The notes under the pieces were generated by a model that worked only from the letters and a program-made list of their open reading frames with translations, did not search any database and was not told the DNA's origin. The position numbers and the translations under genes are program-made. A stretch of DNA of 63,044 nucleotides from an uncultured Thermoplasmata archaeon (lineage in GTDB: Archaea > Thermoplasmatota > Thermoplasmata > WALJ01), in contig CAYYXK010000003.1 of assembly GCA_964475625.1 (NCBI GenBank), forward strand, positions 1 through 63,044, in the 5' to 3' direction. Shown here piece by piece: positions 1 through 12,980 of this stretch. Numbering within the stretch: position 1 is the stretch's first letter; each line of letters opens with the position of its first letter.

Positions 1-14
1 TGAACGCTCCAACT

Positions 15-332
15 ATGCCAAATCCCAGAATCATCGTCCCATCCTCCATCTTCACCAACTCCTACTTCTACAAACATGAAATCGAAGACGGCAACGGAAA
101 CGAATCATGGCCAACCCTAACATTCTACGGCGATGATTCATCCGCGGACAACACGACAGCCCATGTCTCCGGCGTGATATACGGAAACATCACCGGAGAT
201 GATCTTGAAAGTCTTCTGACCGAACTCTCAAAGAACACAACCGGAACAGTAACATACGACTACACCACCGACGACCCTTATCAGATAAACCTGCCCTCCG
301 ATGTACTCAAGCTCGTTCCGTTCTCACAATAT
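15..332 (+). repeat. Conserved module, copy A (most divergent copy)
   Basis: The core ATCATCGTCCCATCCTCCATCTTCACCAACTCCTACTTCTACAAACATGAAAT (30-82) matches the other four copies with few mismatches. The rest is conserved mainly at protein level. Confidence 0.85.
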
Positions 333-1526
333 GCAAGCATTTCCAAGGCAGCAAATTCCAATCTGCGCGTTCTCATAGAGAACTCTCCCACTCAGACTCT
401 GAAAGGAACATCATCCAAAGGAGTGCACAACAGCGTCAACGGATGGGGAGACTTCCTTAAAGGAATAGTCAACGCAGCCGTAGAGGTCGGAACCGTCGCA
501 TGGGATTTCGCGGTAATGGCCGCACAGTCCGCGAAGAACATAGTCTGTTCCGCAATCACTGCGATAGCCACCACCGCCGGGGAATTCCTCACCCAGCTAG
601 GAAAAGCAATAATCGACTTCGGAAAGGAAGTAATCGGAACATTCAAGGACAAAATCAGCGAAGTAAAGGCAGCGGTTGAGAAGGTCGTGGATGTGATAGG
701 GGCGATTATTGAGTGGGTGAAAGAAGCGATAATAAATGCGGTTATGTCCGTTGTAAATCCGATCAAAGCCCGTCTGGACGCATTTTATGACACGCTAATA
801 CAGACAATATCCGATGCATTTACAGAGTATAGCAATACTGGGAGGCTCAGTGCTGAAACACAGCAGAATCTGAATTCTGTTCTCAACTTCAACTATCTAT
901 ATGTGGCATTCGGAGCTATGGTCATAGCCATAGATGCCATCGCAATAGCTGCGGGTTCAGTCACTTTGGGAGCAGGATATCTCTTGATAAGTGCAGCCGT
1001 ACCTTTGATCATAATGGCAGTTGTAGTGGCATTTAGTGGAAGCAGTGAATATGAAACTGCGGAAATCTCAGGACTGCAACCGAATCTGGATTTGAATTAC
1101 ATACTCAATTTCGTCAGGGATATGCTCACTAAAAGCAAAGGAAACGGCATAGGAAACCAGTTAATGGGAGCAGATCCAATGGATGTTTTATTCGGCTTTG
1201 TTTCTGTGCTTTTTGGTATGTGGTCGTGGATTACAGGGGCAATTGCTACAATAGATATAGAAGGGGCAGGTGCAGTAGCTTCCGTAGTTTTAGGTGCTAT
1301 TTCGTGGTGGGTTTTTGGTATAGCAGCATTGATTGCTACTGGAACTTCTGCTGGGGACATACTTGGTTTGATGGCGATAATAGGCGGTATATTATCTCTT
1401 ATTGGATCTGGACTGTCCTTAAGAGGGGTGGAAATTGAAGTTGGAACAAAAATAGCTCTTGGTCTGTCGTTAGCTTTCGGAGGTATTGGAATATATACTG
1501 GATATGAATCCCTATCTTTTACATGA
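15..1526 (+). CDS. Cassette-array protein A: conserved ~105-aa sequon-rich module, conserved helical segment, then a divergent Gly/Ala-rich multi-TM C-terminus. It may be the 3' part of a larger gene that starts left of the window.
   Basis: 503-aa ORF whose frame is open back to window position 3, so the 5' end may be cut by the window edge. N-terminus RIIVPSSIFTNSYFYKHEIEDG...LVPFSQY is paralogous to 8659-8973 and 10793-11107. The last ~210 aa hold 5-6 hydrophobic segments with GxxxG/GxxxA spacing. Confidence 0.75.
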   Translation: MPNPRIIVPSSIFTNSYFYKHEIEDGNGNESWPTLTFYGDDSSADNTTAHVSGVIYGNITGDDLESLLTELSKNTTGTVTYDYTTDDPYQINLPSDVLKLVPFSQYASISKAANSNLRVLIENSPTQTLKGTSSKGVHNSVNGWGDFLKGIVNAAVEVGTVAWDFAVMAAQSAKNIVCSAITAIATTAGEFLTQLGKAIIDFGKEVIGTFKDKISEVKAAVEKVVDVIGAIIEWVKEAIINAVMSVVNPIKARLDAFYDTLIQTISDAFTEYSNTGRLSAETQQNLNSVLNFNYLYVAFGAMVIAIDAIAIAAGSVTLGAGYLLISAAVPLIIMAVVVAFSGSSEYETAEISGLQPNLDLNYILNFVRDMLTKSKGNGIGNQLMGADPMDVLFGFVSVLFGMWSWITGAIATIDIEGAGAVASVVLGAISWWVFGIAALIATGTSAGDILGLMAIIGGILSLIGSGLSLRGVEIEVGTKIALGLSLAFGGIGIYTGYESLSFT

Positions 1527-1538
1527 GGGGGCGATGAA

Positions 1539-2171
1539 ATGAAATGTTACGAAGAAAACACAGAATATGTAATCAGAAATGTGGTTAGAAATGCTAAAAG
1601 CCTAGATTTAATATTTATATATATCGCAGTTCCATCGGTAATACTGTATCTTTTATTGCCTGACTTGTTTTTTCTTTCTGGGTTGTTTCTTTTTATGGCA
1701 GTATTCAATGTACTGCTGTTCATAGGATTCCGTTTATATTCTATTATATCAATTAAAAATTGGATGAATTACAGTTTTGTAACAAAAATATGCTTTTGGG
1801 ATGACTGTATAAAACTAATTTTTAAATCTTCAAATGAAATCAAAATATCTCTGAACAGTATTTATTATTTAAAACTACCTAAAATAAATATCGGTGAAAT
1901 ATGTTACTCTGTGAAGATTGGGAATAAACTCAGGCTTAAAAAACTCTATTTGTCGGCAGATCTATTTTATATTATTAAATCTCAATTAATTAAACATTAT
2001 AAAGAAAAAAACAAAACTCCATCTTTCATAATCGTCTCGCCGGAAGACAGGGCTGCAATGAGATGGGTTCTCACCTCTATCCAAACATATGTCACTCAGG
2101 GTAAAAAAGAAAAACTTAATAAAATCCTTGATGAGTTCTGGTCAAAGCACAAGTTAGAGGAGTTCGAGTAA
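1539..2171 (+). CDS. Small membrane protein with two N-terminal TM helices and a beta-rich cytoplasmic domain; candidate cognate partner or immunity protein of protein A
   Basis: 210-aa ORF starting 12 nt after the stop of protein A, with GAGGGGG upstream. Very AT-rich. Two long hydrophobic helices (VPSVILYLLLPDLFFLSGLFLFMAVFNVLLFIGF) are followed by alternating beta-like segments and a C-terminal helix. Confidence 0.6.
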   Translation: MKCYEENTEYVIRNVVRNAKSLDLIFIYIAVPSVILYLLLPDLFFLSGLFLFMAVFNVLLFIGFRLYSIISIKNWMNYSFVTKICFWDDCIKLIFKSSNEIKISLNSIYYLKLPKINIGEICYSVKIGNKLRLKKLYLSADLFYIIKSQLIKHYKEKNKTPSFIIVSPEDRAAMRWVLTSIQTYVTQGKKEKLNKILDEFWSKHKLEEFE

Positions 2172-2172
2172 T

Positions 2173-2640
2173 ATGTGCGGGAAACACGGAAGGATTATTG
2201 CAGATGTCAGCAATCGAAACCTCAAAACAACGAAATGGGTGCTCACAGTGGGAACGTTCGTTGGGGCAGTATTTGCTATTTTTGCAACCCGATTCTCGAT
2301 GAGCCTCAGTCCAGACATGATGTTCATTACTATTGTATTCTTAGCCAATGTCTTTCTTTTCGCCGCAGCTAGCATTTTTGTCTGGCTGTACTTCTCTTCA
2401 AAAGAGATAATTATATATGAAGACGGCATGAAGATTCCAAACAGCAGATTCTCATCCCGACATGTCAGATATGACAAAATAAAATCGATAGATCTGTATG
2501 CCAAAGGAGGAAATGTGATAATTCGCACAGAAACCAGAGATTTAGAGGTTACAAAGGGAATCATAGGAAAATGGGGGGTATTTGTCAAAATGTTAAAAGA
2601 CAAAGGACTTATAAATGAAAACGGAGATATGGAACCATGA
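2173..2640 (+). CDS. Small 2-TM + PH-like (bPH/YdbS-like topology) membrane protein; second candidate partner or immunity gene
   Basis: 155-aa ORF starting 1 nt after the previous stop. TM hairpin (WVLTVGTFVGAVFAIFA / ITIVFLANVFLFAAASIFVWLYF), then EIIIYEDGMKIPN...IKSIDLY...VIIRTE. This aligns by eye with the 12248-12754 product (AIVYENGIYSN...VEDIYV...VLLLKNGEE). Confidence 0.6.
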   Translation: MCGKHGRIIADVSNRNLKTTKWVLTVGTFVGAVFAIFATRFSMSLSPDMMFITIVFLANVFLFAAASIFVWLYFSSKEIIIYEDGMKIPNSRFSSRHVRYDKIKSIDLYAKGGNVIIRTETRDLEVTKGIIGKWGVFVKMLKDKGLINENGDMEP

Positions 2641-5600
2641 ACTTCCAACAAAAGTTTGATGACATATTCCTTTCCTTTGCCCAATTCCCCGATACAGAAT
2701 GTCTTGTGGACTCCTCTTCTTTCACAACCTTCTCATACTCCATCGAATCCGGTATGAACAACACAATCATCATCCCCTCCTCCATCTTCACGAACTCCTA
2801 CTTCTACCAGCACGAAATAGAAGACGGCGACGGTAAGAACAACCTGCACGACTTCGACTCGGACGGAGACCTTCTTTCCGACGGATGGAACGACACCAAC
2901 GCAAACGGGATATATGATGAGGGAGAAGGATACGGAGAACTGGGAGATCCTCTGGCAGGCAATGCCGGCGGCTACGGCACCGACCCGGCCGATACCGATA
3001 GTGACGGCGACGGCCTTACGGATGGCTTTGAAATAAACAAGTTTGGAGCATGGAATCAAACCATAGATCCAGACGGCGATGAATTCAATTTCTGGAACGC
3101 ACTAGGCCCCAATCTATGGGCAGAAGATGAAGACGGTGATTTTTTGATAAATATTATAGATTGGGACTCTGACAACGATGGCCTTCCGGATGGCTGGTTC
3201 GATGAAAATAACGACCAGATATGGGATGACAATGAATCATTTGGTGAGATTGGAGACATTAACAACAATAATAATGGCAGTTATGGAACTGATCCTTTGG
3301 ACAACGATACTGATAAGGATGGAATTTTAGATGGGATGGAAATTCACTTGAATATGGATCCTCTCGTACGGTATGACAACGATATGGACAACGACGGGAT
3401 ATGGGATTCAAATGATTTACAACCTGCTACTTCTTGGGAAAACATAACATTTAATGATTATTACATCCCAACCGGTGAGCTACTCATAAAAGAATGGCAG
3501 AATGTTTATTGGGGGCATACATACTACGATGATGCCACTCCGCCAGCATCTACTGTAAAGTCCCTTCTTAATGAATATTTGTCTTTTGAGTGGAAAGTTT
3601 CATATGATGTAACTCCCCCTAGTGAATGGATCATAAAATCAGATTTTAATGACTCTCTATGGGAGAAAAACATAACTCCTATAGGTAATGGAGATACACC
3701 TAAAACTCCAGCAACAAAAAGGGATTTTGAAGATCTTTATGCAAGAAAAACTTTTGTTTTAGATAAGCCTATTATGAGTGCTTATCTGCGTCTTTCTTCA
3801 GACGATGGTGCAGACATATGGGTAAATGGAGTAAAAGTACTTAATAGTATAACTGATCATCATCCAGCATCTTATTGGGATTATCAGATAAATATTACAA
3901 ATGAGCTTAAGATAGGTGAAAATTTTATAGCGATCCATATCAAAGACTATGGGGGGTCCTGTTATTTTGAACCTATTCTTGAAGTTCAGTATACATATGG
4001 ATTCTATGGAAACATATTGAATCCCTGGAAAGCGATTGATGCTGAACCGGAATATTCAGTAGGTTGGAAATTATACGATGGGACGGATTGGAAATTTTAT
4101 TATATTCCATTTATTAAAACATATCAAAATATTTTACCAATACACACCGATTATAAAGAGGCTAAATTTTTCTTAAGTATGGCACCTAACACCCAACAAA
4201 AAATAACAGTACAGTTTTCATTAGATCCGAGTTACGACACTAGTTACTATAACGACTCAACCTCATACAAATTACCCGGCTTCATATTCACTTTATATAA
4301 AAATGATTCGTGGCATACGAAATTATTTAGTAAAACTGTAGCAGGAAATGAGTTGAACAACCACTCTTTCCAGTGCGATTTCATAATACCTCCTGAAAAT
4401 ATAACAACAAATAGAACACTTCTTAGTATAATACCAGTTTGGATGGAGACAGATAAAAAAGCATCTCCTTTGGATCCTTCACATATGAAAATAGGTGCTT
4501 TTAGGATGGTAGTACTTGTAAATCAATACTTTGTTATATTCAAAAAAGGAGAAAATGAAACAGCAATTATGAATCAAATTCCAGAAGATGTTTATGATAG
4601 AAATTCTGGATATCTCTCAGGGACAAACATATATGTTTTTAACACTGCAGACAACAGTACTGTGATATATAACGAATTTAAGAATGTGGCTGAAACAGGC
4701 GGTGCAGATGCTGTCGTAGTGACTTCCGATTACAGTGATAAAATCCCCAATGCCATAAAAAGCGTCGATTGGAATTATATATGGAAGCTCGAGGATGCGA
4801 ACACTCTTGCAAACCTTCAATCAATATGGGAGCAATATACAGAAATTCTAATTAATTTTTATTATATAAAACAATATTCAGAACTGACCGGATTAAAATT
4901 AATAAAACCAAGAATCATTTTAGGAAGCGGTCTGGGAGCAACAACACTTCTTGAAAATGAAAATTTTGTTCTTTTGGAAAAAACACCTTCCGCTACTAGC
5001 TCTACAGGTTTCAACTATAATTTAAAATACTATGGTCAAAAACTTAATTCTGGCCAAGAGTTAACAAACTTCGTACAAACCTATTTCGGAATGGATAAGC
5101 AGTACATCGGGGAATCCAACGGATGGTATACATTCAAATCTGTAACTGGAGATGGCAGTGTAGTTAGAGTATGTGATACAAGCATATATACGCATTCAAG
5201 TACAAATTTGGATGAAATAAAGACGAATAAGTTGGTTGAACTAGATACGAAACACGAAACAATGATGAAATCTTTGAAAGTTATAAGTGGTACAGCCATA
5301 TTGGTCACATCAGCTATAGGCTTTATAGAAGCGTACAAAGAGGGAGATACTGCGGGCATGGTTGCATATTCGACCTCTGGAGGTGTTTTATTGACCGGAC
5401 TCTATTTTGAAGATGCATGGATTATTCGGGACGGGTCTTTTGTACTCAAACCAATATGGGCGATTGCCTCTATTGTCGCAGGAAGTATTTTTGCTTCATA
5501 TTATCTATATCAGGCATCTCTAACAGACGATCCTGCCTTGAAACATTACTATTATGGTAGAGCAACCTCTGCTTTTATAGATGGTGTTATGTTCTCAAAT

Positions 5601-5831
5601 CCCTTCACAGCACTTGGAGAAGCCGCCGTAATCCTAGGTACTGCTGTTGGTTGGGCATTAGGTCTATTAGATAGACCGATGACTTTTGGTGATGTAGTTG
5701 TCGCCATATGCGACTGGATAACGGGAACGCCCCAGCCAGACCCAGAAAAACAGTATTTTTACTATGTTGTTTGGAAAACTTTTACAGACAATATTCCAGA
5801 TGGTGCCATATATGTAGGAGATTATCCCTAA
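2637..5831 (+). CDS. Large cassette-array protein B: junction motif, TSP3-like Ca-binding repeats, lectin/jelly-roll-like domain, long unknown region, hydrophobic C-terminus
   Basis: 1064-aa ORF with ATGA overlap onto the previous gene and GGAGA 10 nt upstream. Motif GMNNTIIIPSSIFTNSYFYQHEIEDGDG lies at aa 39-66. It is followed by repeated DxDxDGxxDxxE stretches (DSDGDLLSDGW, DTDSDGDGLTDGFE, DSDNDGLPDGW, DNDTDKDGILDGME). AYLRLSSDDGADIWVNGVKV looks like a galactose-binding-like fold. About 4 hydrophobic helices lie in the last 200 aa. An alternative start is the motif Met at 2754. Confidence 0.7.
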   Translation: MNFQQKFDDIFLSFAQFPDTECLVDSSSFTTFSYSIESGMNNTIIIPSSIFTNSYFYQHEIEDGDGKNNLHDFDSDGDLLSDGWNDTNANGIYDEGEGYGELGDPLAGNAGGYGTDPADTDSDGDGLTDGFEINKFGAWNQTIDPDGDEFNFWNALGPNLWAEDEDGDFLINIIDWDSDNDGLPDGWFDENNDQIWDDNESFGEIGDINNNNNGSYGTDPLDNDTDKDGILDGMEIHLNMDPLVRYDNDMDNDGIWDSNDLQPATSWENITFNDYYIPTGELLIKEWQNVYWGHTYYDDATPPASTVKSLLNEYLSFEWKVSYDVTPPSEWIIKSDFNDSLWEKNITPIGNGDTPKTPATKRDFEDLYARKTFVLDKPIMSAYLRLSSDDGADIWVNGVKVLNSITDHHPASYWDYQINITNELKIGENFIAIHIKDYGGSCYFEPILEVQYTYGFYGNILNPWKAIDAEPEYSVGWKLYDGTDWKFYYIPFIKTYQNILPIHTDYKEAKFFLSMAPNTQQKITVQFSLDPSYDTSYYNDSTSYKLPGFIFTLYKNDSWHTKLFSKTVAGNELNNHSFQCDFIIPPENITTNRTLLSIIPVWMETDKKASPLDPSHMKIGAFRMVVLVNQYFVIFKKGENETAIMNQIPEDVYDRNSGYLSGTNIYVFNTADNSTVIYNEFKNVAETGGADAVVVTSDYSDKIPNAIKSVDWNYIWKLEDANTLANLQSIWEQYTEILINFYYIKQYSELTGLKLIKPRIILGSGLGATTLLENENFVLLEKTPSATSSTGFNYNLKYYGQKLNSGQELTNFVQTYFGMDKQYIGESNGWYTFKSVTGDGSVVRVCDTSIYTHSSTNLDEIKTNKLVELDTKHETMMKSLKVISGTAILVTSAIGFIEAYKEGDTAGMVAYSTSGGVLLTGLYFEDAWIIRDGSFVLKPIWAIASIVAGSIFASYYLYQASLTDDPALKHYYYGRATSAFIDGVMFSNPFTALGEAAVILGTAVGWALGLLDRPMTFGDVVVAICDWITGTPQPDPEKQYFYYVVWKTFTDNIPDGAIYVGDYP
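2738..2818 (+). repeat. Junction box, copy B; only the first ~25 codons of the module are present before the sequence switches to TSP3-like repeats
   Basis: CTCCATCGAATCCGG + ATGAACAACACAATCATCATCCCCTCCTCCATCTTCAC(G)AACTCCTACTTCTACCAGCA(C)GAAAT. The 15 nt before the ATG are identical to 10777-10791. Confidence 0.85.
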
Positions 5832-5840
5832 GGTGATAAA

Positions 5841-6395
5841 ATGATCGTAGGATATCTGAGCAGTGATGGAAAGATATACGACAGAAGTGGTAAATTCGTA
5901 AAGGAATTCAAACAGGATGAAGATGAAAAAGAAATAAAAAGATTCGTTTCCACCTCTCTTGTTGTGTCGTTCTGGGGTAGATCAGGAAGATCAAATCCGT
6001 TAGCAGATATGTATCCGGGTGAAGGCTTATTCATACAGACAAACAAAAGACTCATTTTCATCCGGGAATTAAAGCCTTCCAAGTCGTTTGCTGTGAATTC
6101 TTTCTTCGGTTCAGCCATGGTTGAAGCCATGAGAATGAGAGACCTGAAAAGATTGGGTCTCAGAGAGTATTTTGAGGTGTATTTCGACGAAATAATAGGT
6201 CATATCATCCATAAAGATGGTTACACTCTTTTAATATTGACGAGGGATAATGAAATTCGTAGCATCTTTGTTTCAAAGGAATTGAACTCTCCTGAAATTC
6301 TTAAGAAAGAGATATCTCGAAAAGAAGCAAAGAAAATGCAAAAAGAGATTAAAAAGAGAAAAAAGATATATTTTGGGAGGGTTATTTGGGAATGA
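5841..6395 (+). CDS. Soluble small protein, tandem paralog 1 of 3 (PH/GRAM-like guess); candidate immunity or partner of protein B
   Basis: 184 aa. Begins MIVGYLSSDGKIYDRSGKFVKEF behind the shared junction GGTGATAAAATG. Core QTNKRLIFIRELKP...AMRMRDLKRLGLREY is shared with the next two genes. No TM segment. Lys-rich tail. Confidence 0.65.
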   Translation: MIVGYLSSDGKIYDRSGKFVKEFKQDEDEKEIKRFVSTSLVVSFWGRSGRSNPLADMYPGEGLFIQTNKRLIFIRELKPSKSFAVNSFFGSAMVEAMRMRDLKRLGLREYFEVYFDEIIGHIIHKDGYTLLILTRDNEIRSIFVSKELNSPEILKKEISRKEAKKMQKEIKKRKKIYFGRVIWE

Positions 6396-6862
6396 TCATA
6401 GGCTATCTCAGCAGTGACAATAAGATATACACCAGAAACGGCAGGTTCATTAAGGAGTTCAGACTGGAGGAGGATGAAGAAATCATAGAGAAGGATAATG
6501 ATTTTTACTGTGGGGGCATAGCAAAGGCTACCAGAATAGGCGGAAATAGCGTTTTTGATAAGGGCAAATGCACAATCATAAGAACGAACGAGAGGCTGAT
6601 TCTATACAGGGAAATAAAACCAAGAGAGAAAATGTCTCTACATCCTTTCTTAGGTGAGGCATTAATCGAGGCTCTTCGGGCAAAGGAACTTAGCAAACTT
6701 GGGTTAAAGGAATACATCGAATTTCAGATGTCAGAGATAGAAAAGACCGAAAAAGGATGGCTTCTGAAAGGGAGAGAAATAGATTTCCGTTTCAATGGAG
6801 ATAAATATTATATGATATTCCCCAAATCAAAGAAAAATACTTTAGAGGACCTTTTCAGGTGA
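6392..6862 (+). CDS. Soluble small protein, tandem paralog 2 of 3
   Basis: MIIGYLSSDNKIYTRNGRFIKEF...RTNERLILYREIKP...ALRAKELSKLGLKEY. I prefer the ATG at 6392 (ATGA overlap with the paralog 1 stop) over the track TTG start at 6386, because it matches the paralog N-termini. Confidence 0.65.
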   Translation: MIIGYLSSDNKIYTRNGRFIKEFRLEEDEEIIEKDNDFYCGGIAKATRIGGNSVFDKGKCTIIRTNERLILYREIKPREKMSLHPFLGEALIEALRAKELSKLGLKEYIEFQMSEIEKTEKGWLLKGREIDFRFNGDKYYMIFPKSKKNTLEDLFR

Positions 6863-6866
6863 TAAA

Positions 6867-7334
6867 ATGATCGTAGGATACCTCGGTAGTGATGGAAAAA
6901 TATACGACAGAAACGGCAGGTTCATTAAGGAGCTCAGACTAGAGGAGGACGAAGAAATCATGGAAAAAGATGATAAATTTTACTGCGGAGGAATGTCAGA
7001 AAAGGTAGCTTTCGGAGATAGTGTATTTGAGAGAGGATATACCGAAGTCGTGAGGACATCTGCGCGGCTCATATTCATAAGAGAAATGAGGGCGATGGAA
7101 AAATTCTCAAACCATCCTTTCTTTGGAGCAGCCCTTTTAGCGGCCATGAGGGCCAAGGAGATCGCCAGTCTGGGATTCAGAGAGTACCTGGAGATACCAT
7201 TGGAAGAAATAAACGAGGCCAAAAAACGAATAACAGGTGCAAGGAATCTAATAATGAATGCCGATGGAATCGAGTATATCATGGTCTTCCCTAAATCAAA
7301 AAAAGGCACTTTGGAAGAGCTTTTTGGGAAGTGA
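6867..7334 (+). CDS. Soluble small protein, tandem paralog 3 of 3
   Basis: MIVGYLGSDGKIYDRNGRFIKEL...RTSARLIFIREMRA...AMRAKEIASLGFREY. Preceded by AGGTGATAAAATG, in which the TGA is the stop of paralog 2. Confidence 0.65.
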   Translation: MIVGYLGSDGKIYDRNGRFIKELRLEEDEEIMEKDDKFYCGGMSEKVAFGDSVFERGYTEVVRTSARLIFIREMRAMEKFSNHPFFGAALLAAMRAKEIASLGFREYLEIPLEEINEAKKRITGARNLIMNADGIEYIMVFPKSKKGTLEELFGK

Positions 7335-7372
7335 TAAAACGATCTTAGGATATATTAGTAGCAATCAAGATA
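7330..7372 (+). pseudogene. Dead 5' stump of a fourth tandem paralog (start codon ATG changed to ACG), read through in frame into the ORF of protein C
   Basis: GTGATAAAACGATCTTAGGATATATTAGTAGC at 7331-7362 matches the junction GTGATAAAATGATCGTAGGATA seen at 5833 and 6859. It encodes T-ILGYISSN against M-IVGYLSSD. Similarity is lost after about 12 codons. Confidence 0.6.
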
Positions 7373-7395
7373 GCTATAACATAACTAACGTCTCC

Positions 7396-10185
7396 ATGGT
7401 TTTGATACATGTCGGAGAGCTTTCAATTGGAACATCTCCGTTGAACAACGACACGGACGGAGACAACATAACCGACGGAGACGGACTCACTGACTCTCAG
7501 GAAACATACACGAGGACATTCACAATAGACAGCAGGTACACACTCTCATCGGACAGAACGATATCTCTGAACGCGAGGGTCAGCAATTCCGCAGTGGAAT
7601 CCGTATATGTGCGCTTCGGACTCTCCGGCGTCAGCAATACAAAGGTCACTCTCACCCTCGAGAGCCCGGACGGAATCTCCGAGGAGATATACAACAATAC
7701 GCCCTCCTCGGGCTACCTTTTCAACTCCACGGACATAACCTCAATGACATCCGATTATTCCGGAACATGGAAGCTTACCGTAAGCTTAAACTCTCATTCA
7801 CCAAGCAAGATGCTCGAGGACTTCACCCTCACATTCACAATGAAAACCTCACCGGTAAATGATGATTGCGACGGCGACGGCCTCTACGACGGAGAGGAAG
7901 CCACCCCTGGAGAGGACGGATACATAACCGATCCCAACCTTGCAGACACAGACGGTGACGGTCTGTGGGACGGCTATTACACGGGCAATTCCGCAATCTC
8001 TCCGCCTCCCGGAGAAGAATCATATGGAACAAACCCCTTGAACCCGGATACGGATTCCGACGGAGTATCGGACGGCGACGACTTGGCGAAAACTTCAAAC
8101 ACCATGATGAGGATAACCATAAAGAACATCCAGATAAAGAATTCTCCGCCGGATGTCAATGAAGCAAAGGTGCAGGTCATCATCCATGTGAAATCCGGAC
8201 CCGTTAATGCGACCTACATAACGACACATATCGTAATTAAAGACCTCACCAACGGTTCGGGCAGCAAATCACTTGACATAACATATTTCCTCGACATGTC
8301 CGACATCATGGGTGCGACTCATCATTTCGATGTTTACCTTTACAGATACTTAGATCAGGATTCCTATCTGATGAACATAGAAGGTCCTTCCACGGATTAT
8401 TCATACGACTGGCAGACCAACGCAAACGGCGGTATGGAGTATATCAATCTCAATCCCAACGGAGATAACGCATCTCTTCTAATCCATGTTGAGATGGATG
8501 AGCAGCCGAGAAACGATGTTTTCGCATTTTATACCCCGGATATGGCCGTAAATGCAAAGATAGGATCGGAACCTCTGAGATATCTCGGCACATCCTCTTA
8601 CTATGTTTTCATATTGAACACAACCAAGGATTCTTCCGACTCCACCATCCAAGCAGGTATGAACAACACAATCATCGTCCCCTCTTCCATCTTCACCAAC
8701 TCCTACTTCTACCAGCATGAAATTCTCGAAGGCGACGGAGCCACCAACTGGCCGAACCTAACCTTCTACGGCGACAACGAATCATCGGACAGCACAACCG
8801 CTCACATATCGGGAATCATAACAGGCAATCTGACAGGAGACGAAGTCCTCGAACTTCTAACCGAACTCTCAAAGAACACAACCGGAATAGTAACATACAA
8901 TTACTCTCTCGAAGACCCGACACAGCTCAATCTTCCCCCGGATGCACTCAAACTGGTTCCGTTCTCCGGATATGTGAAAAAGCTAGACGGCAAAACGGTC
9001 ATTCTGAAAAATGCCCGGACATCCGATATTCAGGAGCCCCCGACCATCTCCGCAAACGGAGGATATGACACGGTAAACGGATTGATGGACTCGATCAAAC
9101 AGAAATTGCAGGGTGCCGTCAATCTCGGCATCTCCGTCGGAACAGCGGTCTGGGACAAAGCCGTAGACCTTGGAACCGAACTCGCTCACATAGTCTGCTC
9201 GGCAATAACCGCAGTCGCAGTAAAATTCACGGAATTCGTTGTCCAGCTGGGAAAAGCAATAATCGACTTCGGTAAAAAGGTCATAGGAGCCTTCGAAAAA
9301 GCCATGGCCGAAGTAAAGGCAGCGGTTGATAAGGTCGTGGATGTCATCGGCGCACTCTTAAACTCACTCGTCGAAATGGCAAAAAGCATGTTCAACAGCA
9401 TGATAGAGAGCATCCGAAATGCAATACACGACTGGTATATCGGAATAGTCGATGTGGTCGAAAGAATAGTCAATGCAAGCAGTGATGAAGAAGCGATGCA
9501 GCTGGGAGTTGAGTTGTTCAGAGCCACATTCGGAAGCATATTACCTTATGCGATGGCTCTGGTGATAGGCATTGAAGCCGCAATAATGATAATCCAGGGA
9601 CTCAGCGGCGGGCTTACCACCCTTATCTTGCCTCTTATAGCCATGGTCATTATAACCGCGTTCTCCAGCAATGCCGAGCTTCCCGGCAATGTGAACATAG
9701 ATTCGGACCTCACTTTCGAAGGTCTGGTCAATTGGGTTGCGGACAATATGGAAGGAGGAGGAAGCAGCGACAACAGCGAAGAATGGAACCGAGCTTTGGT
9801 ATCCGTTGTTATAGGCGGTTTTGCCACCTTGCTGGCTCTAACAGGATATACCATATCTTGGTATAACACAAAATTAGACGACATGTATAATCGTAGAAAC
9901 ACAATGGTAAAAGAAGAAATGGGTGAGAAGGCAAGCCAAGCAGCTATATTATTAGGATTTCTCAGCATGATACTGTCCGTATCCACAGTGAATGATGTGC
10001 TGATATCCGAAGATGCAAGAGCAGAGTTGAATCTATGGAGCTCCGTACTTGCTGGAATGGGAATCATTCTATCCATTGTCGGTATGTTATTAAATCCAAG
10101 CGCACTAGGAGCCGGTGGAATCATATTGGATTTCTTCGCTCTTATCATGTCTGGAGCCGGTTTAGCACTCTCGGGGGGTCTTTAG
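7396..10185 (+). CDS. Large cassette-array protein C: TSP3-like repeats, P-domain-like jelly roll, unknown beta domain, S/T-rich linker, conserved ~105-aa module, helical segment, divergent multi-TM C-terminus
   Basis: The ORF is open from 7258 (975 aa). The first in-frame ATG past the upstream gene is 7396 and the true start is uncertain. Motifs: NNDTDGDNITDGDGLTD, DDCDGDGLYDGEE, DTDGDGLWDG, DTDSDGVSDGDD. VYVRFGLSGVSNTKVTLTLESPDGISEEIY resembles a proprotein-convertase P-domain. The module starts at Met468 (nt 8659). The C-terminal 280 aa hold about 6 hydrophobic segments. No signal peptide is visible. Confidence 0.7.
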   Translation: MVLIHVGELSIGTSPLNNDTDGDNITDGDGLTDSQETYTRTFTIDSRYTLSSDRTISLNARVSNSAVESVYVRFGLSGVSNTKVTLTLESPDGISEEIYNNTPSSGYLFNSTDITSMTSDYSGTWKLTVSLNSHSPSKMLEDFTLTFTMKTSPVNDDCDGDGLYDGEEATPGEDGYITDPNLADTDGDGLWDGYYTGNSAISPPPGEESYGTNPLNPDTDSDGVSDGDDLAKTSNTMMRITIKNIQIKNSPPDVNEAKVQVIIHVKSGPVNATYITTHIVIKDLTNGSGSKSLDITYFLDMSDIMGATHHFDVYLYRYLDQDSYLMNIEGPSTDYSYDWQTNANGGMEYINLNPNGDNASLLIHVEMDEQPRNDVFAFYTPDMAVNAKIGSEPLRYLGTSSYYVFILNTTKDSSDSTIQAGMNNTIIVPSSIFTNSYFYQHEILEGDGATNWPNLTFYGDNESSDSTTAHISGIITGNLTGDEVLELLTELSKNTTGIVTYNYSLEDPTQLNLPPDALKLVPFSGYVKKLDGKTVILKNARTSDIQEPPTISANGGYDTVNGLMDSIKQKLQGAVNLGISVGTAVWDKAVDLGTELAHIVCSAITAVAVKFTEFVVQLGKAIIDFGKKVIGAFEKAMAEVKAAVDKVVDVIGALLNSLVEMAKSMFNSMIESIRNAIHDWYIGIVDVVERIVNASSDEEAMQLGVELFRATFGSILPYAMALVIGIEAAIMIIQGLSGGLTTLILPLIAMVIITAFSSNAELPGNVNIDSDLTFEGLVNWVADNMEGGGSSDNSEEWNRALVSVVIGGFATLLALTGYTISWYNTKLDDMYNRRNTMVKEEMGEKASQAAILLGFLSMILSVSTVNDVLISEDARAELNLWSSVLAGMGIILSIVGMLLNPSALGAGGIILDFFALIMSGAGLALSGGL
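8636..8973 (+). repeat. Conserved module, copy C, internal to the full-length-like gene
   Basis: CCGACTCCACCATCCAAGCAGGT + ATGAACAACACAATCATCGTCCCC... through PFSGY, 315 nt from the Met. Confidence 0.85.
9111..9344 (+). repeat. Gene-conversion tract, copy in protein C (helical segment GAVNLGISVGTAVWDK...KAAVDKVVDV)
   Basis: 9111-9329 is identical base for base to 11221-11439 (219 bp). One mismatch follows, then 14 more identical bases. The flanking linkers on the 5' side are unrelated. Confidence 0.9.
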
Positions 10186-10187
10186 TA

Positions 10188-10715
10188 ATGGTTAAAATAA
10201 ATTATATATTGAAAAGCTCATACGTTGGCACGATGAGGTCCATGTTATTATTATTTATTTTTATGGATTTTCTGGGTCTGTATTTCATTTTATCCATTAT
10301 CGGGCGAGTGAGTATTCTTTATCCGATACTCTTATTTATTTATATCATATTATCAAATATTTTTTATTTCTTTTATTTATTAGATATATTTGAGCCATAT
10401 ATCATCGAAATAGAAGGCAAAAGTCTAAAAATAATAACAAAAAGAAAAAGAGTATTGAGAGAATTTGATATCTGTAAAGTCAAGGTTCCGTTAATTAGTC
10501 TAAAGATAGATTTTCATGATAAGTTTATAAAAAAGAACAAAGGTGTTTATATGTACTTCTCAGATGACCTAAGACATGGCATTTCTATAGGAAAAGGGTT
10601 CATACGATATGGCAGAATCCCCATGCGCGAAGCCGTAGAGATTGAGAACTGGATAAAAGAATGGAAGAAAAAGCTCTGTGAAACGAACACAAACAAAGGA
10701 GGTGACGAGAGATAG
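10188..10715 (+). CDS. Small 2-TM + beta-rich membrane protein; candidate cognate partner or immunity protein of protein C
   Basis: ATG at 10188 lies 2 nt after the protein C stop (TAG 10183-10185), with GGGGGG upstream. The 10035 track start would overlap protein C and is rejected. TM hairpin MLLLFIFMDFLGLYFILSII / ILYPILLFIYIILSNIFYFFYLL, then YIIEIEGKSLKIITK...FDICKVKV. Very AT-rich. Confidence 0.6.
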   Translation: MVKINYILKSSYVGTMRSMLLLFIFMDFLGLYFILSIIGRVSILYPILLFIYIILSNIFYFFYLLDIFEPYIIEIEGKSLKIITKRKRVLREFDICKVKVPLISLKIDFHDKFIKKNKGVYMYFSDDLRHGISIGKGFIRYGRIPMREAVEIENWIKEWKKKLCETNTNKGGDER

Positions 10716-10776
10716 AGCCGAGATACAGCTTTTCATCGGACGAAGCAATATGTCACGCCTCCTCCGACCCCACCCA

Positions 10777-11107
10777 CTCCATCGAATCCGGAATGAACAA
10801 CACAATCATCATCCCCTCCTCCATCTTCACCAACTCCTACTTCTACCAGCATGAAATCCTCGAAGGCGGCGGAGCCACCAACTGGCCGAACCTCACATTC
10901 TACGGAGACAACGAATCATCGGACAACACAACCGCCCACATATCCGGAATCATAAGCGGAAATCTGACAGGAGACGAAGTCCTCGAACTTCTAACCGAAC
11001 TATCGAAGAACACAACCGGAATAGTAACATACAATTACTCTCTCGAAGACCCGACACGGCTCAATCTGCCCCCGGACGCACTCAAACTCGTTCCTTTCTC
11101 AGGCTAC
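10777..11107 (+). repeat. Conserved module, copy D
   Basis: Same 315-nt module. The 5' flank is shared with copy B and the body is shared with copies C and E. Confidence 0.85.
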
Positions 11108-12238
11108 GGATACCTCATAGACACATATGTAAAACTCAGCAATTCTCCCACCGGGCAGCTTCCGCAGTCAAGGTCAATAGGAGGAAATACTCCCGACAGC
11201 TGGCTCGGCGATCTGGCCAAGGGTGCCGTCAATCTCGGCATCTCCGTCGGAACAGCGGTCTGGGACAAAGCCGTAGACCTTGGAACCGAACTCGCTCACA
11301 TAGTCTGCTCGGCAATAACCGCAGTCGCAGTAAAATTCACGGAATTCGTTGTCCAGCTGGGAAAAGCAATAATCGACTTCGGTAAAAAGGTCATAGGAGC
11401 CTTCGAAAAAGCCATGGCCGAAGTAAAGGCAGCGGTTGAGAAGGTCGTGGATGTGATAGCCTCGTTTATAGACTGGGTTACAGAAGTAATAAAACAAGCA
11501 TTTTCAGACATATTGAAGCCTCTCCTTGACGCAATAGAATCCATAAAACAAGATATGATTGATGCTGGAAAGTACATTCTGGAAAATCTTGATAGATTAA
11601 GTCCGGGAGAAATACAATCTCGTCTTACTAGGGCCCTGCATCCGGAAATTATTATACCTTTATTCATCGGAATAACGGTCACTTCCGTTCTTCTAACAAT
11701 AGCCGCCAAGGTTGGAACAATGGGTACAGACTTTATTTTTGGAATATTGTTGGGTATCATAGTGGGTGCCGCTTCATATATGGTGGAACAGGCAGTATTT
11801 TCAATGTCATCTGCCGAAGACTGGCTTATTGATAAAATACAGGATGCCGAACCTTCGGAAGAGATATCAGAATATGTGGCTCTTATAAGTCTACTTTTTT
11901 CATCATTACATAAACTAATAGATAGCTTGTTTTTCGACAACCGTTTAAAAACTACAGGGGGGTTCGTTCTATCACTAATTTCGGTAATTTTGGTTTTAAG
12001 CGGTTTAATATATGAAGACACAGTCTCACAAGCAATAATTTCTATTTTTTCTATGGTTATAGGCGTTGAAAGTGCATATCAAAGTCTTAAAGGCATAGCA
12101 GGTCCAAAAATAGGAACAATACCCGGATTGCTGGGATTTGCAGGTTTTTGTATAGGGACTCTGTCATCTTCGGCTGCTTTTTTCACTTTTATAGCATCAT
12201 TCGGTCCAAATACGAAATCAATAAAGAGAGGTTCGTGA
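10793..12238 (+). CDS. Cassette-array protein D (orphan-like copy): conserved module, helical segment, then a divergent multi-TM C-terminus, with no N-terminal repeat region
   Basis: 481-aa ORF that starts exactly at the module Met. About 30 nt of the S/T/P-linker coding sequence is still recognisable upstream without a start codon; the frame is open only from 10706. The module is ~90% identical in DNA to 8659-8973. Tract 11221-11439 is 100% identical to 9111-9329. The C-terminus diverges after VVDVI. Confidence 0.7.
   Translation: MNNTIIIPSSIFTNSYFYQHEILEGGGATNWPNLTFYGDNESSDNTTAHISGIISGNLTGDEVLELLTELSKNTTGIVTYNYSLEDPTRLNLPPDALKLVPFSGYGYLIDTYVKLSNSPTGQLPQSRSIGGNTPDSWLGDLAKGAVNLGISVGTAVWDKAVDLGTELAHIVCSAITAVAVKFTEFVVQLGKAIIDFGKKVIGAFEKAMAEVKAAVEKVVDVIASFIDWVTEVIKQAFSDILKPLLDAIESIKQDMIDAGKYILENLDRLSPGEIQSRLTRALHPEIIIPLFIGITVTSVLLTIAAKVGTMGTDFIFGILLGIIVGAASYMVEQAVFSMSSAEDWLIDKIQDAEPSEEISEYVALISLLFSSLHKLIDSLFFDNRLKTTGGFVLSLISVILVLSGLIYEDTVSQAIISIFSMVIGVESAYQSLKGIAGPKIGTIPGLLGFAGFCIGTLSSSAAFFTFIASFGPNTKSIKRGS
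11221..11454 (+). repeat. Gene-conversion tract, copy in protein D
   Basis: See 9111-9344. A 40-bp sub-box GAAGTAAAGGCAGCGGTTGAGAAGGTCGTGGATGTGATAG is also identical in copy A (660-699). Confidence 0.9.
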
Positions 12239-12247
12239 GGTAAGTAT

Positions 12248-12754
12248 ATGAATAATAATACAAAAATATATCTTAGAAATATAATATATAAAGAAAGATT
12301 TCTTTTTAAGAAAGTAGTGGATTGTTTAGAGCTTCCACTCATTGCTTTTTTAACTCTTTTTGTTAATGCTTACTCACATACTCTTTCAAATCCAATAGAG
12401 AAAAATTTATTTTTATATTCTTCATATATACTGCCTATTATATGGTTAACTTTTTTCTTATGGGGTCTTTCTATAAAAGCAATTGTTTACGAAAACGGCA
12501 TTTACTCCAATTACTCCCTGAAATACCGAGGTACATGGCATTTCAAGGATGTCGAAGATATTTATGTCGCACCATTCCCTTACGGAGGAAAAAAGATGAG
12601 GCAGGTCGTTCTTCTCCTGAAAAACGGGGAGGAAAAGACCGTCATAGCATATGATAAGGATGCCGTCATAGATCGGTTCTATGAAGAGGCAAAAAAGGCA
12701 TTTGAGGCATACAAATCAAAAAATAAAGGTGAAAGTGATGATATACATATATGA
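12248..12754 (+). CDS. Small 2-TM + PH-like membrane protein; candidate cognate partner or immunity protein of protein D
   Basis: 168-aa ORF starting 9 nt after the protein D stop. TM hairpin LPLIAFLTLFVNAY / LFLYSSYILPIIWLTFFLWGLSI, then AIVYENGIYSNYSLKYRGTWHFKDVEDIYV...VVLLLKNGEEKTVIAY and a C-terminal helix. Homologous by eye to the 2173-2640 product. Confidence 0.6.
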   Translation: MNNNTKIYLRNIIYKERFLFKKVVDCLELPLIAFLTLFVNAYSHTLSNPIEKNLFLYSSYILPIIWLTFFLWGLSIKAIVYENGIYSNYSLKYRGTWHFKDVEDIYVAPFPYGGKKMRQVVLLLKNGEEKTVIAYDKDAVIDRFYEEAKKAFEAYKSKNKGESDDIHI

Positions 12755-12854
12755 AGAGTACATAAGCAACGATTTTCCGGCTATATCGGGATATTTACAA
12801 CAGAACACAGACCTACCCCCCTTCACCTCCCCCGACTCCACCATCCAAGCAGGT

Positions 12855-12980
12855 ATGAACAACACAATCATCATCCCCTCCTCCATCTTCACCAACTCCT
12901 ACTTCTACCAGCATGAAATCCTCGAAGGCGGCGGAGCCACCAACTGGCCGAACCTCACATTCTACGGAGACAACGCATGA
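12855..12980 (+). pseudogene. Truncated fifth copy (E) of the conserved module: first 40 codons only
   Basis: 12855-12975 is 121/121 identical to 10793-10913. The 26 nt upstream (12832-12857) match copy C (8636-8661), not copy D. Homology stops at 12975 and a TGA follows at 12978-12980, 6 nt before the stop codon (12987-12989) of the convergent neighbour. Confidence 0.8.

What the first reader, a model, noticed from the sequence alone, without database searches (positions are those of the whole stretch)
8636..8723. Near-identical ~65-80-bp junction box present five times, always with an in-frame ATG and a preceding S/T/P linker
The box is ATGAACAACACAATCATC(A/G)TCCCCTC(C/T)TCCATCTTCAC(C/G)AACTCCTACTTCTACCAGCA(T/C)GAAAT.
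- It recurs at 2754, 8659, 10793 and 12855 with 0-3 mismatches.
- A more diverged copy lies at 15-82.

DNA conservation here exceeds what the protein motif (MNNTIIIPSSIFTNSYFYQHEI) requires.

What follows the box differs between copies. In copy B it is TSP3-like repeats. In copies A, C, D and E it is the NWPNLTFYGD domain.

The 15-26 nt before the ATG come in two versions:
- CTCCATCGAATCCGG in copies B and D;
- CCGACTCCACCATCCAAGCAGGT in copies C and E.
These two versions are shuffled relative to the downstream sequence.

In the orphan copies the upstream S/T/P/D-rich linker codons persist without any start codon. The box therefore behaves like the VENN or PxxxxDPxGL demarcation motifs of CDI and Rhs systems, that is, a homologous-recombination handle for cassette exchange. 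The conserved Met could also let displaced cassettes be translated on their own.
Basis: seen in the sequence. Interest (0 to 1): 0.75.

Follow-up and report, generated by a model that had tools for sequence, protein, structure and literature searches.

The report
Repeat box in archaeal cassette genes
The repeated 65-base box encodes the first strand of a conserved protein domain shared by a tandem family of variable membrane-protein genes in an uncultured archaeon. Copying between the gene copies keeps it identical, and it marks one edge of the stretch where they recombine, in a locus laid out like bacterial toxin-immunity cassette arrays.

Summary
The box is real. The two upstream versions are indeed shuffled relative to the downstream sequence.

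It is not a DNA-level signal. In a second species the same peptide is conserved, but synonymous sites differ as much as in the flanks: 43% identical codons, against 54% and 48%. Within this genome the near-identity runs on for about 700 nt in copies C and D.

In 43 relatives the box is the first beta-strand of a conserved domain (G-h-N-x-I-I-V-P). It usually lies deep inside surface proteins of 600-3100 aa, and the Met is not conserved. Those relatives that carry a source name come from Thermoplasmata or Methanomassiliicoccales MAGs, and one from a Lokiarchaeota MAG.

The 39-46-codon "linker" is translated and includes the strand before the box.

The genes share one layout: a conserved core of about 230 aa, a hypervariable, mostly multi-transmembrane C-terminus after the motif KVVDVI, and then diverse small membrane-protein genes.

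In three lineages arrays contain 5'-truncated copies. Every visible array end carries a 3'-truncated leader+box remnant.

So the locus is organised like polymorphic-toxin arrays with orphans. The box is the 5' edge of the homology block, and the VENN-like cassette boundary lies about 220 codons downstream. Toxicity is untested.

The parts
8636..8723 (+). Copy C, the finding's coordinates. It comprises 23 nt of pre-ATG linker (TIQAG version) plus the 65-nt box (8659-8723). It is internal to ORF C, where the Met is residue 468.
15..82 (+). Copy A, the diverged box (MPNPRIIVPSSIFTNSYFYKHEI). The gene starts 5 codons upstream (MNAPT), 1 nt before the window.
   Evidence: P0006; L008
2637..2836 (+). 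Copy B: a 39-codon leader (2637-2753; its ATG overlaps the stop of the upstream small gene), then the box (2754-2818). Homology to the other copies ends at about 2836, where TSP3 repeats begin. It looks like a terminal leader+box remnant fused in frame to an unrelated gene body.
10706..10857 (+). Copy D: a vestigial 29-codon leader without a start codon (10706-10792), then the box (10793-10857). This box ATG is the first start codon of ORF D.
12738..12980 (+). Copy E, the terminal 3'-truncated remnant. It has a 39-codon leader, the box (12855-12919) and 19 further codons before the stop. It is identical to D for 121 nt from the ATG and abuts the convergent wHTH gene.
   Evidence: (P0015)
1..1526 (+). 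Gene A (508 aa, P0006): box, core1, core2 and a multi-TM variable C-terminus.
2637..5831 (+). Gene B (1064 aa): leader, box, TSP3 repeats, a large region with no detectable homologues, and C-terminal TM segments.
7258..10185 (+). Gene C (975 aa; a gene caller started it at 7396, giving P0009 of 929 aa). It has TSP3 repeats, a P-domain-like region, a C2-like beta-sandwich, then box, core1, core2 and a variable multi-TM C-terminus. No signal peptide, so it is probably itself 5'-truncated.
10793..12238 (+). Gene D (481 aa, P0001): box, core1, core2 and a variable multi-TM C-terminus.
8659..9348 (+). The homology block in C, from the box through core1 and core2. The equivalent blocks are 10793-11458 in D and 15-698 in A. 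C and D are 92-96% identical over two sub-blocks, separated by a short variable insert.
9331..9348 (+). The KVVDVI motif, which is the conserved/variable junction before the C-terminal cassette. Equivalents are 11441-11458 in D and 681-698 in A.
   Evidence: (P0011 vs P0013)
1539..2640 (+). Two small membrane-protein genes after A (1539-2171, 210 aa; 2173-2640, 155 aa). Both stay linked to an A-type C-terminus at the syntenic locus L010.
5841..7334 (+). Three paralogous small soluble-protein genes after B (5841-6395, 6386-6862, 6867-7334).
10188..10715 (+). Small membrane-protein gene after C (about 175 aa from the Met just after C's stop). By eye, a similar gene stands alone as an orphan in L010; no alignment was run.
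12248..12754 (+). Small two-TM protein gene after D (168 aa). It has a weak hit to the STM3941 family.

Best explanation
The box is ordinary coding sequence. It encodes the first beta-strand and following turn of a conserved, probably extracellular, domain (core1). That domain opens a conserved block of about 230 aa (core1 + core2) in a previously undescribed family of archaeal surface and membrane proteins; the named relatives are mostly from Thermoplasmata and Methanomassiliicoccales.

In this genome at least five tandem paralogues share that block. Each carries a different, mostly multi-transmembrane, C-terminus after the motif KVVDVI, and each is followed by one to three diverse small (mostly membrane) protein genes.

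The near-identity of the box DNA is a by-product of recent duplication and gene conversion between these paralogues (inferred). It is not selection on a nucleotide signal (shown). The sequences upstream, the 39-46-codon leaders, are essentially unrelated between copies, so the box is the first stretch where homologous recombination can start. This is why upstream and downstream variants appear shuffled there (shown as mosaicism; the mechanism is inferred).

The overall organisation is that of a polymorphic toxin/immunity or self-recognition cassette system. It has long signal-peptide-bearing forms in relatives, 5'-truncated orphan-like copies, orphan small genes and terminal leader+box remnants. 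The architecture is shown; the function is inferred and untested.

Unequal crossing-over between a gene's box block and the terminal remnant would both expand arrays and regenerate the remnant. This is a hypothesis.
For: 1. Protein-level, not DNA-level, conservation. In L001 (MAG 'archaeon isolate Dive96_bin1.310') the peptide MNNTI(I/L)VPS(S/Q)IFTNS(Y/W)FY is kept, while codons vary (ATA/ATC, CCA/CCC, TCT/TCG/TCC, ACA/ACC, TAT/TAC). Pooled synonymous-codon identity is 43% in the box, 54% in core1 and 48% in core2.
2. Within the genome the identity is not box-specific.
3. A profile search found 93 relatives. In 43 of them the box equivalent G-[MLVIFY]-N-x-[IV][IL][VI]-P is present. In most it lies deep inside proteins of up to 3124 aa, preceded by a conserved strand 'RYFVF.L.VTS' plus a linker.
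4. The AF2 model (pLDDT 77, pTM 0.69) puts the leader strand at E171-178 and the box at strand E190-198. The region upstream is a C2-like sandwich.
5. Core1 has 7 N-X-S/T sequons in 81 residues. A long relative, P0041, has a signal peptide.
6. Leaders are coding.
7. Mosaicism and switch points are documented.
8. Array architecture is repeated in independent lineages:
   - L009: long gene, then an 858-aa truncated copy, then a 371-aa copy starting at the box Met, then a 64-nt remnant.
   - L011: gene, small gene, 92-aa remnant.
   - L001 and L005.
9. The syntenic locus L010 keeps an A-type C-terminus with the same two small genes, plus an orphan small gene that by eye resembles the one after C, plus a degenerate remnant.
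10. P0011 and P0013 share an identical N-terminus but have different C-termini, which indicates cassette swapping just after KVVDVI.
Against: - No toxin, immunity or secretion domain is recognisable in Pfam, NCBIfam, PADLOC or PDB, so the conflict-system reading rests on architecture only.
- The short forms have no signal peptide, so how their sequon-rich N-terminal domain would reach the outside is unexplained.
- For A versus D, the box has more identical synonymous codons than core1 (15/17 versus 32/53, p=0.04). A local excess therefore exists in one pair, though it fits a short conversion tract.
- The recurrence of terminal remnants ending 2-62 codons after the box start is not predicted by simple duplication or conversion.
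- The sample is small: nine sequences of one lineage, some from the same environment.
Confidence: 0.75

Rival explanations
1. One reading: the box is a selected recombination handle, a demarcation motif like VENN or PxxxxDPxGL, whose DNA identity is maintained so that cassettes can be exchanged there.
For: - Five to seven of about nine inferred switch points fall between -4 and +81.
- Orphan-like copies begin at or just upstream of the box in two lineages: D, and L009 g4 (P0064).
- Terminal remnants always retain the box region.
- Assemblies break at the box: a scaffold gap in L009, and the window's left end at copy A.
Against: - There is no synonymous-site constraint between species.
- The variable cassette starts about 220 codons further on, after KVVDVI.
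- Switches also occur at +126..133 and +167..180.
- The tested intervals were short for several copies, and the leaders are non-homologous, so clustering at the first homologous segment is expected without any selection.
- The isolated remnant in L010 has decayed.
Confidence: 0.12
2. The conserved Met is a functional internal or alternative start codon. It would let core plus C-terminus be made without the upstream part, so displaced cassettes are expressed on their own.
For: D (10793) and L009 g4 / P0064 start exactly at this Met. In g4 the upstream homology was converted to a TAG stop.
Against: - The position is L, V, I, F or Y in most distant relatives.
- 9 of 10 short forms keep an open, ATG-initiated leader of 39-46 codons, often overlapping the upstream gene's stop as ATGA.
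- No Shine-Dalgarno-like or promoter evidence could be evaluated with these tools.
Confidence: 0.15
3. The leader plus '[ST]-I-[EQ]-[SA]-G | M-N-N-T' is a processing or secretion signal. It would be a double-glycine-like leader cleaved after the Gly, and the box would be the mature N-terminus.
For: - Leaders have a conserved length and are under coding constraint.
- Ile at -4 and Gly at -1 are conserved with synonymous variation.
- The short forms lack a Sec signal yet carry many sequons.
Against: - In long relatives the same segment is an internal strand-loop-strand between two folded domains.
- No C39 peptidase or ABC exporter was noticed among the called genes of the fetched arrays; no dedicated search was made.
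- The typical -7/-8 Leu/Glu positions of double-glycine leaders are absent. That consensus is from my own knowledge and was not tested here.
Confidence: 0.08
4. Assembly artefact: metagenome assemblers mis-joined paralogues at the repeat, creating the apparent shuffling.
For: - Contigs and scaffolds end at the box (the window's left end).
- D and E share a 121-nt exact run.
Against: - Two independent assemblies reproduce window 1-2979 and 9203-11247 at 100%.
- Exact runs between the other copies are only 20-38 nt.
- Each copy has unique flanks on both sides.
- The same architecture appears in unrelated samples and lineages.
Confidence: 0.03

Closest known systems
CDI (cdiA-CT/cdiI) and Rhs loci with orphan toxin/immunity modules (Poole et al. 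2011, PMC3150448; Koskiniemi et al. 2014, PMC3967940)
   Same: - A conserved region is followed by a sharp junction and a polymorphic C-terminus.
- A small variable gene lies immediately downstream.
- Downstream 5'-truncated copies retain part of the conserved region.
- There are orphan small genes, and mosaicism consistent with homologous exchange.
   Different: - No TPS or FHA repeats, no CdiB, no YD repeats, no VENN or PxxxxDPxGL motif.
- The host is archaeal.
- Most variable C-termini are multi-pass membrane regions, not soluble enzymes.
- Arrays end in a 3'-truncated leader+box remnant.
- The box lies about 220 codons upstream of the variable junction.
Polymorphic toxin systems in general (Zhang et al. 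2012, PMC3482391)
   Same: The template matches: an N-terminal trafficking or adhesion region (signal peptide, PKD, TSP3, C2-like domains in long relatives), a conserved 'pre-toxin'-like module, a variable C-terminal domain, and adjacent small genes and cassettes.
   Different: - That survey reports such systems as generally absent from archaea, apart from a few methanoarchaea and haloarchaea with bacterial-type RHS toxins.
- Here no known toxin or immunity domain is detectable, and the family looks native to archaea (named relatives mostly Thermoplasmata and Methanomassiliicoccales).
- Toxicity and immunity are unproven.
VARTIG module of Thermococcales (Makarova et al. 2021, PMC8416519)
   Same: It is an archaeal, lineage-specific hypervariable module. 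A large surface protein varies at its C-terminal part by recombination and is followed by variable downstream genes. Its function is unknown, and polymorphic-toxin-like or self/non-self roles have been proposed.
   Different: VARTIG is defined by Ig domains and a hypervariable C-terminal Ig domain. Here the variable part is a multi-TM region, the conserved part is a different fold, and the taxon is different.
Silent-cassette gene conversion systems (e.g. pilE/pilS, vlsE) - from my own knowledge
   Same: Tandem partial copies are flanked by short conserved blocks that serve as homology for segmental conversion into other copies.
   Different: In those systems the surface-exposed part varies and the silent copies lack expression signals. 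Here the exposed domain is conserved and most copies look expressible.

Membership tests
CDI (CdiA/CdiB) | VENN (PT-VENN) motif immediately before the variable C-terminus | tested here: not met
   The junction motif is KAAV(D/E)KVVDVI. No VENN is seen at the junction in the alignment, and there is no DUF637/PT-VENN Pfam hit.
CDI (CdiA/CdiB) | TPS secretion domain, filamentous haemagglutinin repeats and a CdiB transporter gene | tested here: not met
   Pfam and NCBIfam scans of A-D and their homologues found none. The host is an archaeon.
Rhs/YD toxins | YD/RHS repeats and the PxxxxDPxGL demarcation | tested here: not met
   No RHS or YD Pfam hits.
Polymorphic toxin system (generic definition, PMC3482391) | Conserved N-terminal/central architecture with an abruptly variable C-terminal module | tested here: met
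   C versus D: 78/79 identical residues before KVVDVI and 11/68 after. P0011 and P0013 have an identical N-terminus and different C-termini.
Polymorphic toxin system (generic definition, PMC3482391) | Variable small (immunity) gene directly downstream, co-inherited with its C-terminus | tested here: inconclusive
   Small genes are always present and highly diverse. An A-type C-terminus keeps the same two small genes in L010. Only one such pair could be compared, and in several cases the small gene's stop overlaps the next gene's start.
Polymorphic toxin system (generic definition, PMC3482391) | Stand-alone or orphan cassettes near a full-length gene | tested here: met
   L009: a long gene, then 858-aa and 371-aa truncated copies. 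P0008, P0011, P0013 and P0020 start inside core2. No full-length signal-peptide form was seen in the window itself.
Polymorphic toxin system (generic definition, PMC3482391) | C-terminal domain is toxic and the downstream protein neutralises it | not testable with these tools
   No known toxin or immunity domain was found. Expression assays are needed.
VARTIG | Large protein with Ig domains and a hypervariable C-terminal Ig domain, in Thermococcales | tested here: not met
   No Ig/CARDB hits in A-D. The variable part is a TM region. The window's GlyRS is nearest to Methanomassiliicoccales and Thermoplasmata.
Double-glycine leader peptides | Leader ending in GG/GA/GS, cleaved by a C39-peptidase ABC transporter encoded nearby | tested here: inconclusive
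   Leaders end in SG or AG, with Ile at -4. No C39 peptidase or ABC exporter was noticed among the called genes of the fetched arrays; no dedicated search was made. Cleavage is not testable here.

The most novel reading that the evidence does not exclude
This is a native archaeal polymorphic conflict or kin-recognition system that has not been described. Its named relatives are mostly from Thermoplasmata and Methanomassiliicoccales, with one from a Lokiarchaeota MAG.

Surface-anchored proteins would carry exchangeable membrane-embedded C-terminal modules, with cognate small membrane 'immunity' proteins.

Arrays would grow and swap cassettes by recombination between two homology blocks. One is the box/core1 edge, retained as a terminal 'landing-pad' remnant at every array end. 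The other is the KVVDVI edge.
Probability: 0.35. Interest if true: 0.8.

Novelty: new variant of a known kind. Interest (0 to 1): 0.55.

Why it matters
Polymorphic toxin systems were reported as largely absent from archaea, apart from a few bacterial-type RHS loci (PMC3482391). Archaeal self/non-self systems are barely known; VARTIG is one example (PMC8416519).

The work here found:
- a family with no Pfam, NCBIfam or PDB match and with 93 detectable relatives;
- cassette-array organisation in at least three lineages;
- variable modules that are membrane-embedded rather than enzymatic.

If the C-termini are toxins or identity determinants, this would be a new archaeal competition or recognition mechanism. 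The two homology edges and the terminal remnant would then give a testable model of how cassette arrays are built.

For the narrow claim, the lesson is cautionary. Intragenomic DNA identity of a short motif can be fully explained by gene conversion among paralogues. One comparison with a second species was enough to remove the appearance of nucleotide-level selection.

Tried and rejected
- Pfam, NCBIfam and PADLOC scans of all large and small proteins gave only TSP3 and P-domain hits, sub-threshold DUF7217 hits on core2, and sub-threshold STM3941-family hits on two small proteins.
- tRNA and Rfam scans of the window found nothing.
- The first AF2 model, built from 8 close sequences, was unusable (pLDDT 39). 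Only the 21-sequence alignment gave a usable model.
- A PDB profile search with alignment A5 gave no hits.
- I guessed that the P0004 C-terminus is papain- or C39-like from a Cys...His pattern. Neither Pfam nor PDB sequence search supports this, so I do not claim it.
- A homologue search with B found only TSP3-repeat matches, so the 'other parent' of the B chimera could not be identified.
- The 18.3-kb JGI contig carrying P0002-P0004 could not be retrieved. Only the fragments L002 and L008 were obtained.
- tblastn against phage and plasmid collections found nothing.
- Assembly chimerism was considered and rejected.
- Codon bias was considered as the sole cause of the C-ending codons and set aside. 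The other species uses other synonymous codons at the same residues.
Full report
**Observation**

A diverged copy lies at 15-82. Aligning the five copies with their flanks confirms three things:
- The pre-ATG sequence comes in two versions: ...TCCATCGAATCCGG(T/A) in B and D, and ...CCATCCAAGCAGGT in C and E.
- B diverges completely after about +82 nt.
- C, D and E stay similar well beyond the box.

**Gene context**

All copies lie in one same-strand array at the left end of the window.
- A is 1-1526. Its start codon begins 1 nt before the window (P0006).
- B is 2637-5831. It has a 39-codon leader, the box, TSP3 repeats, a large region with no detectable homologues, and TM segments.
- C is 7258-10185, with the box Met at residue 468.
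- D is 10793-12238, and the box ATG is its first start codon.
- E is 12738-12980, 80 aa, truncated.
- Small genes lie between the large ones: 1539-2171, 2173-2640, a paralogous trio at 5841-7334, 10188-10715 and 12248-12754. Most have two TM segments.

The rest of the window carries archaeal housekeeping genes, including dimeric GlyRS, ArgRS and Tpt1. The GlyRS is 50-56% identical to those of Methanomassiliicoccales and Thermoplasmata MAGs. The organism is therefore most likely a poorly sampled relative of the Thermoplasmata.

**Is the DNA more conserved than the protein requires?**

Only eight close homologues exist among 5.8 billion clustered proteins. Two of them sit on a contig of another species (L001, 'archaeon isolate Dive96_bin1.310'). 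That contig has three box copies.

In L001 the peptide is conserved but the codons differ freely. Among codon pairs encoding the same amino acid, window versus L001, identical codons make up:
- 43/101 (43%) in the box,
- 191/354 (54%) in the next 83 codons (core1),
- 116/244 (48%) in the second conserved block (core2).

Inside the window genome the identity is not box-specific either. For C versus D the figures are 18/20 in the box, 63/78 in core1 and 74/76 in core2. The repeat finder shows blocks of 300 nt (93%) and 255 nt (96%). Only A versus D shows a marginal local excess (15/17 versus 32/53, p=0.04). The likely explanation is a short conversion tract.

**What the box is at the protein level**

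Aligning the family shows three parts:
- a variable leader of about 40-47 aa;
- a conserved core of about 230 aa, made of core1 (box to PFSGY), a short variable insert, and core2 (ending KAAVxKVVDVI);
- an unrelated C-terminus.

A profile of the core, searched against 1.84 billion representative proteins, found 93 relatives. In 43 of them the box equivalent is present, with the consensus G-[MLVIFY]-N-x-[IV][IL][VI]-P-x-x-[IL][FY]. It is nearly always preceded by a conserved strand 'RYFVF.L.VTS...PF..G'. It usually lies far inside proteins of 600-3100 aa that carry PKD, TSP3 and other adhesion domains. One (P0041) has a clear signal peptide. Relatives that carry a source name are Thermoplasmata or Methanomassiliicoccales MAGs, plus one Lokiarchaeota MAG.

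An AF2 model of C residues about 278-580, built from 21 diverse sequences, has pLDDT 77 and pTM 0.69. It places the 'leader' strand at E171-178 and the box at strand E190-198, followed by short helices. The part upstream is a C2-like beta-sandwich by Foldseek (E about 6e-3, probability 0.97-1.0). Core1 carries seven N-X-S/T sequons in 81 residues, which suggests it is extracellular.

The leaders of the short forms are translated:
- 9 of 10 have no in-frame stop in the 40 upstream codons, against 16 and 12 stops in the other two frames.
- They have an ATG at -39 to -46.
- Gene coordinates show the leader's start overlapping the stop of the preceding small gene in B, L001 (P0005), L002 (P0003) and L005.

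Only D lacks a start upstream. A has a 5-codon extension.

**Recombination**

Per-segment mismatch tables for nine sequences of this lineage show different nearest neighbours in adjacent segments. The sequences are A-E plus the metagenome fragments L002, L004, L005 and L006.

Switch points, in nt from the A of the ATG:

| Sequence | Switch |
|---|---|
| E | C-like up to -1, D-like from +18 (p=0.003) |
| L005 | B-like up to -4, C-like from +18 |
| D | B-like to +26, C-like from +38 |
| L006a | A-like to +26/44, other from +54 |
| L004 | C-like to +44, L002/A-like +59..+167, C-like from +180 (p=0.0002) |
| L002 | switches at +71/75 and +126/133 |
| A | L006a-like to +44, L002-like from +81 (p=0.0002) |

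All four combinations of upstream type (SIESG/TIQAG) and downstream type (NGNESWPT/GATNWPN) occur.

Many switches map to the box, but this needs two cautions. The leaders are almost unrelated (13-27 differences in 34 nt), so the box is simply the first place where homologous exchange can occur. The tested intervals were also short for several copies.

Independent assemblies reproduce the junctions (L008 = window 1-2979; L003 = window 9203-11247; both 100%). Exact runs shared between copies are 20-38 nt, except 121 nt for D and E. Assembly chimerism is therefore unlikely.

**The real cassette boundary**

Identity collapses after KVVDVI. For C versus D it is 78/79 residues before and 11/68 after. 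P0011 and P0013 share an identical N-terminus and core2 but have different C-termini. P0008, P0011, P0012, P0013 and P0020 are 5'-truncated proteins that begin inside core2 and carry a full C-terminus. This is the classic orphan-module form.

**Independent arrays**

- **L009** (a contig whose long gene clusters at 90% identity with a Methanomassiliicoccales MAG protein). It has a long gene, interrupted by a scaffold gap exactly at the box. Next come a small gene and an 858-aa 5'-truncated copy that is 99.9% identical over 1249 nt upstream of the box. Then another small gene and a 371-aa copy that starts at the box Met; its roughly 18 nt of upstream homology is mutated to a TAG. Then another small gene, and finally a 64-nt box remnant. 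Its box DNA is quite different from the window's (ATGAACACGATAATCCTTCCGCGC...) but 100% identical among its own three full copies.
- **L011** (its large gene clusters with a Thermoplasmata MAG protein). It has a 5'-truncated gene, a small gene, and a 92-aa leader-strand+box remnant.
- **L001** ends in a 102-aa remnant.
- **L005** has only a small gene, homologous to the one after P0008 (E=1e-50), plus a 115-aa remnant.
- **L010** is syntenic with the window, sharing the same wHTH-ArgRS-RIO1-eIF1A-Tpt1 flank at 79% identity. It holds an orphan small gene that by eye resembles the one after C (no alignment run), an A-type 5'-truncated gene (P0011), and homologues of both small genes that follow A. 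It also holds a 51-aa ORF made of a B-like leader plus a decayed box.

These loci support three conclusions:
- C-terminus and small genes travel together, although only one pair could be compared.
- Small genes persist as orphans.
- Every array end seen (six, in three lineages) carries a 3'-truncated leader+box remnant, ending 2-62 codons after the box start.

B is best read as such a remnant fused in frame to an unrelated TSP3 protein body. The body has no homologues beyond the repeats.

**Mechanism**

Shown:
- The box is coding sequence for a conserved strand.
- There is no cross-species DNA constraint.
- Near-identity within the genome extends across the core.
- The paralogues are mosaic.
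- There are two homology edges.
- The orphan/remnant architecture recurs.

Inferred:
- Gene conversion and unequal crossing-over among tandem paralogues homogenise the core.
- Exchange in the core, together with the next copy's box block or the terminal remnant, swaps or duplicates [C-terminus + small gene] units.
- Crossing-over between a gene's box block and the terminal remnant would generate short forms that all start at the remnant's 5' boundary, and would regenerate the remnant.

Functional reading (inferred, untested): a polymorphic toxin/immunity or self-recognition system whose variable modules are membrane-embedded.

**Comparison with known systems**

The organisation works like CDI/Rhs orphan arrays (PMC3150448, PMC3967940) and fits the generic polymorphic-toxin template (PMC3482391). 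Every family-defining feature of CDI and Rhs is absent: VENN, TPS/FHA, CdiB, YD repeats and PxxxxDPxGL. It also lacks the Ig domains that define VARTIG (PMC8416519). No Pfam, NCBIfam, PADLOC or PDB family covers the core. It is absent from the phage and plasmid collections. The literature searches found no description of it.

**Verdict**

It is wrong about the nature of the box, which is a protein motif at the 5' edge of a homology block, not a selected DNA handle and not the cassette demarcation. It is also wrong about the Met.

The wider finding is moderately to highly interesting but functionally unproven: an undescribed archaeal cassette family with a recurrent terminal remnant.

Noticed in passing
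window 12738-12980; L001 5743-6051; L005 9881-10228; L009 12066-12129; L010 8173-8328; L011 12502-12780: Every array end that is visible carries a 3'-truncated leader+box remnant. There are six such loci in three lineages. Truncation points are 2-62 codons after the box start. The isolated remnant in L010 is decayed, while E in the window is 100% identical to D over 121 nt.
   Followed up: partly
window 2637-5831: Gene B looks like a terminal leader+box remnant fused in frame to an unrelated TSP3-repeat surface protein. Residues from about 260 to 1064 have no detectable homologues.
   Followed up: partly
window 5841-7334: Three tandem paralogous small soluble proteins (184, 158 and 155 aa; pairwise E=1e-25 to 1e-53) lie between B and C. 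There is no family hit for the one member scanned against NCBIfam and PADLOC, or for the two scanned against Pfam. The C ORF's upstream-most ATG overlaps the third one by 77 nt.
   Followed up: partly
window 2173-2640 and 12248-12754: Two of the small two-TM proteins give sub-threshold NCBIfam hits to the uncharacterised STM3941 family (E=2.8e-6 and 4e-3). By eye they look like two TM segments plus a PH-like domain.
   Followed up: no
L006 149-641: In one population variant a small antitoxin-like ORF and a RelE/ParE-like ORF (both judged by eye) sit between a truncated A-type start+box and a shortened C-type upstream region.
   Followed up: no
L009 4673-4682; window position 1: Assemblies break at the box. 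There is a scaffold gap of Ns exactly at the box inside the long gene of L009. The window contig ends 1 nt inside the start codon of gene A.
   Followed up: yes
P0004 residues about 300-502 (18.3-kb JGI contig, not retrievable): One family member has a soluble C-terminus with a Cys...His pattern instead of TM segments. Pfam and PDB sequence searches gave nothing.
   Followed up: partly
P0012 (382 aa, from the profile search): This variant has a B-like leader and a degenerate box, but most of core1 is deleted and it joins directly to core2 and a C-terminus. Core1 is therefore dispensable in at least one copy.
   Followed up: no
window 9110-9364, 11220-11474; many relatives: Core2 repeatedly gives sub-threshold Pfam hits to DUF7217 (E down to 1.6e-4). 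It contains a hydrophobic segment followed by long amphipathic helices.
   Followed up: no
window 24444-28943 (- strand): A 1499-aa ORF has no NCBIfam hit. It is unrelated to the box family by the profile search.
   Followed up: no
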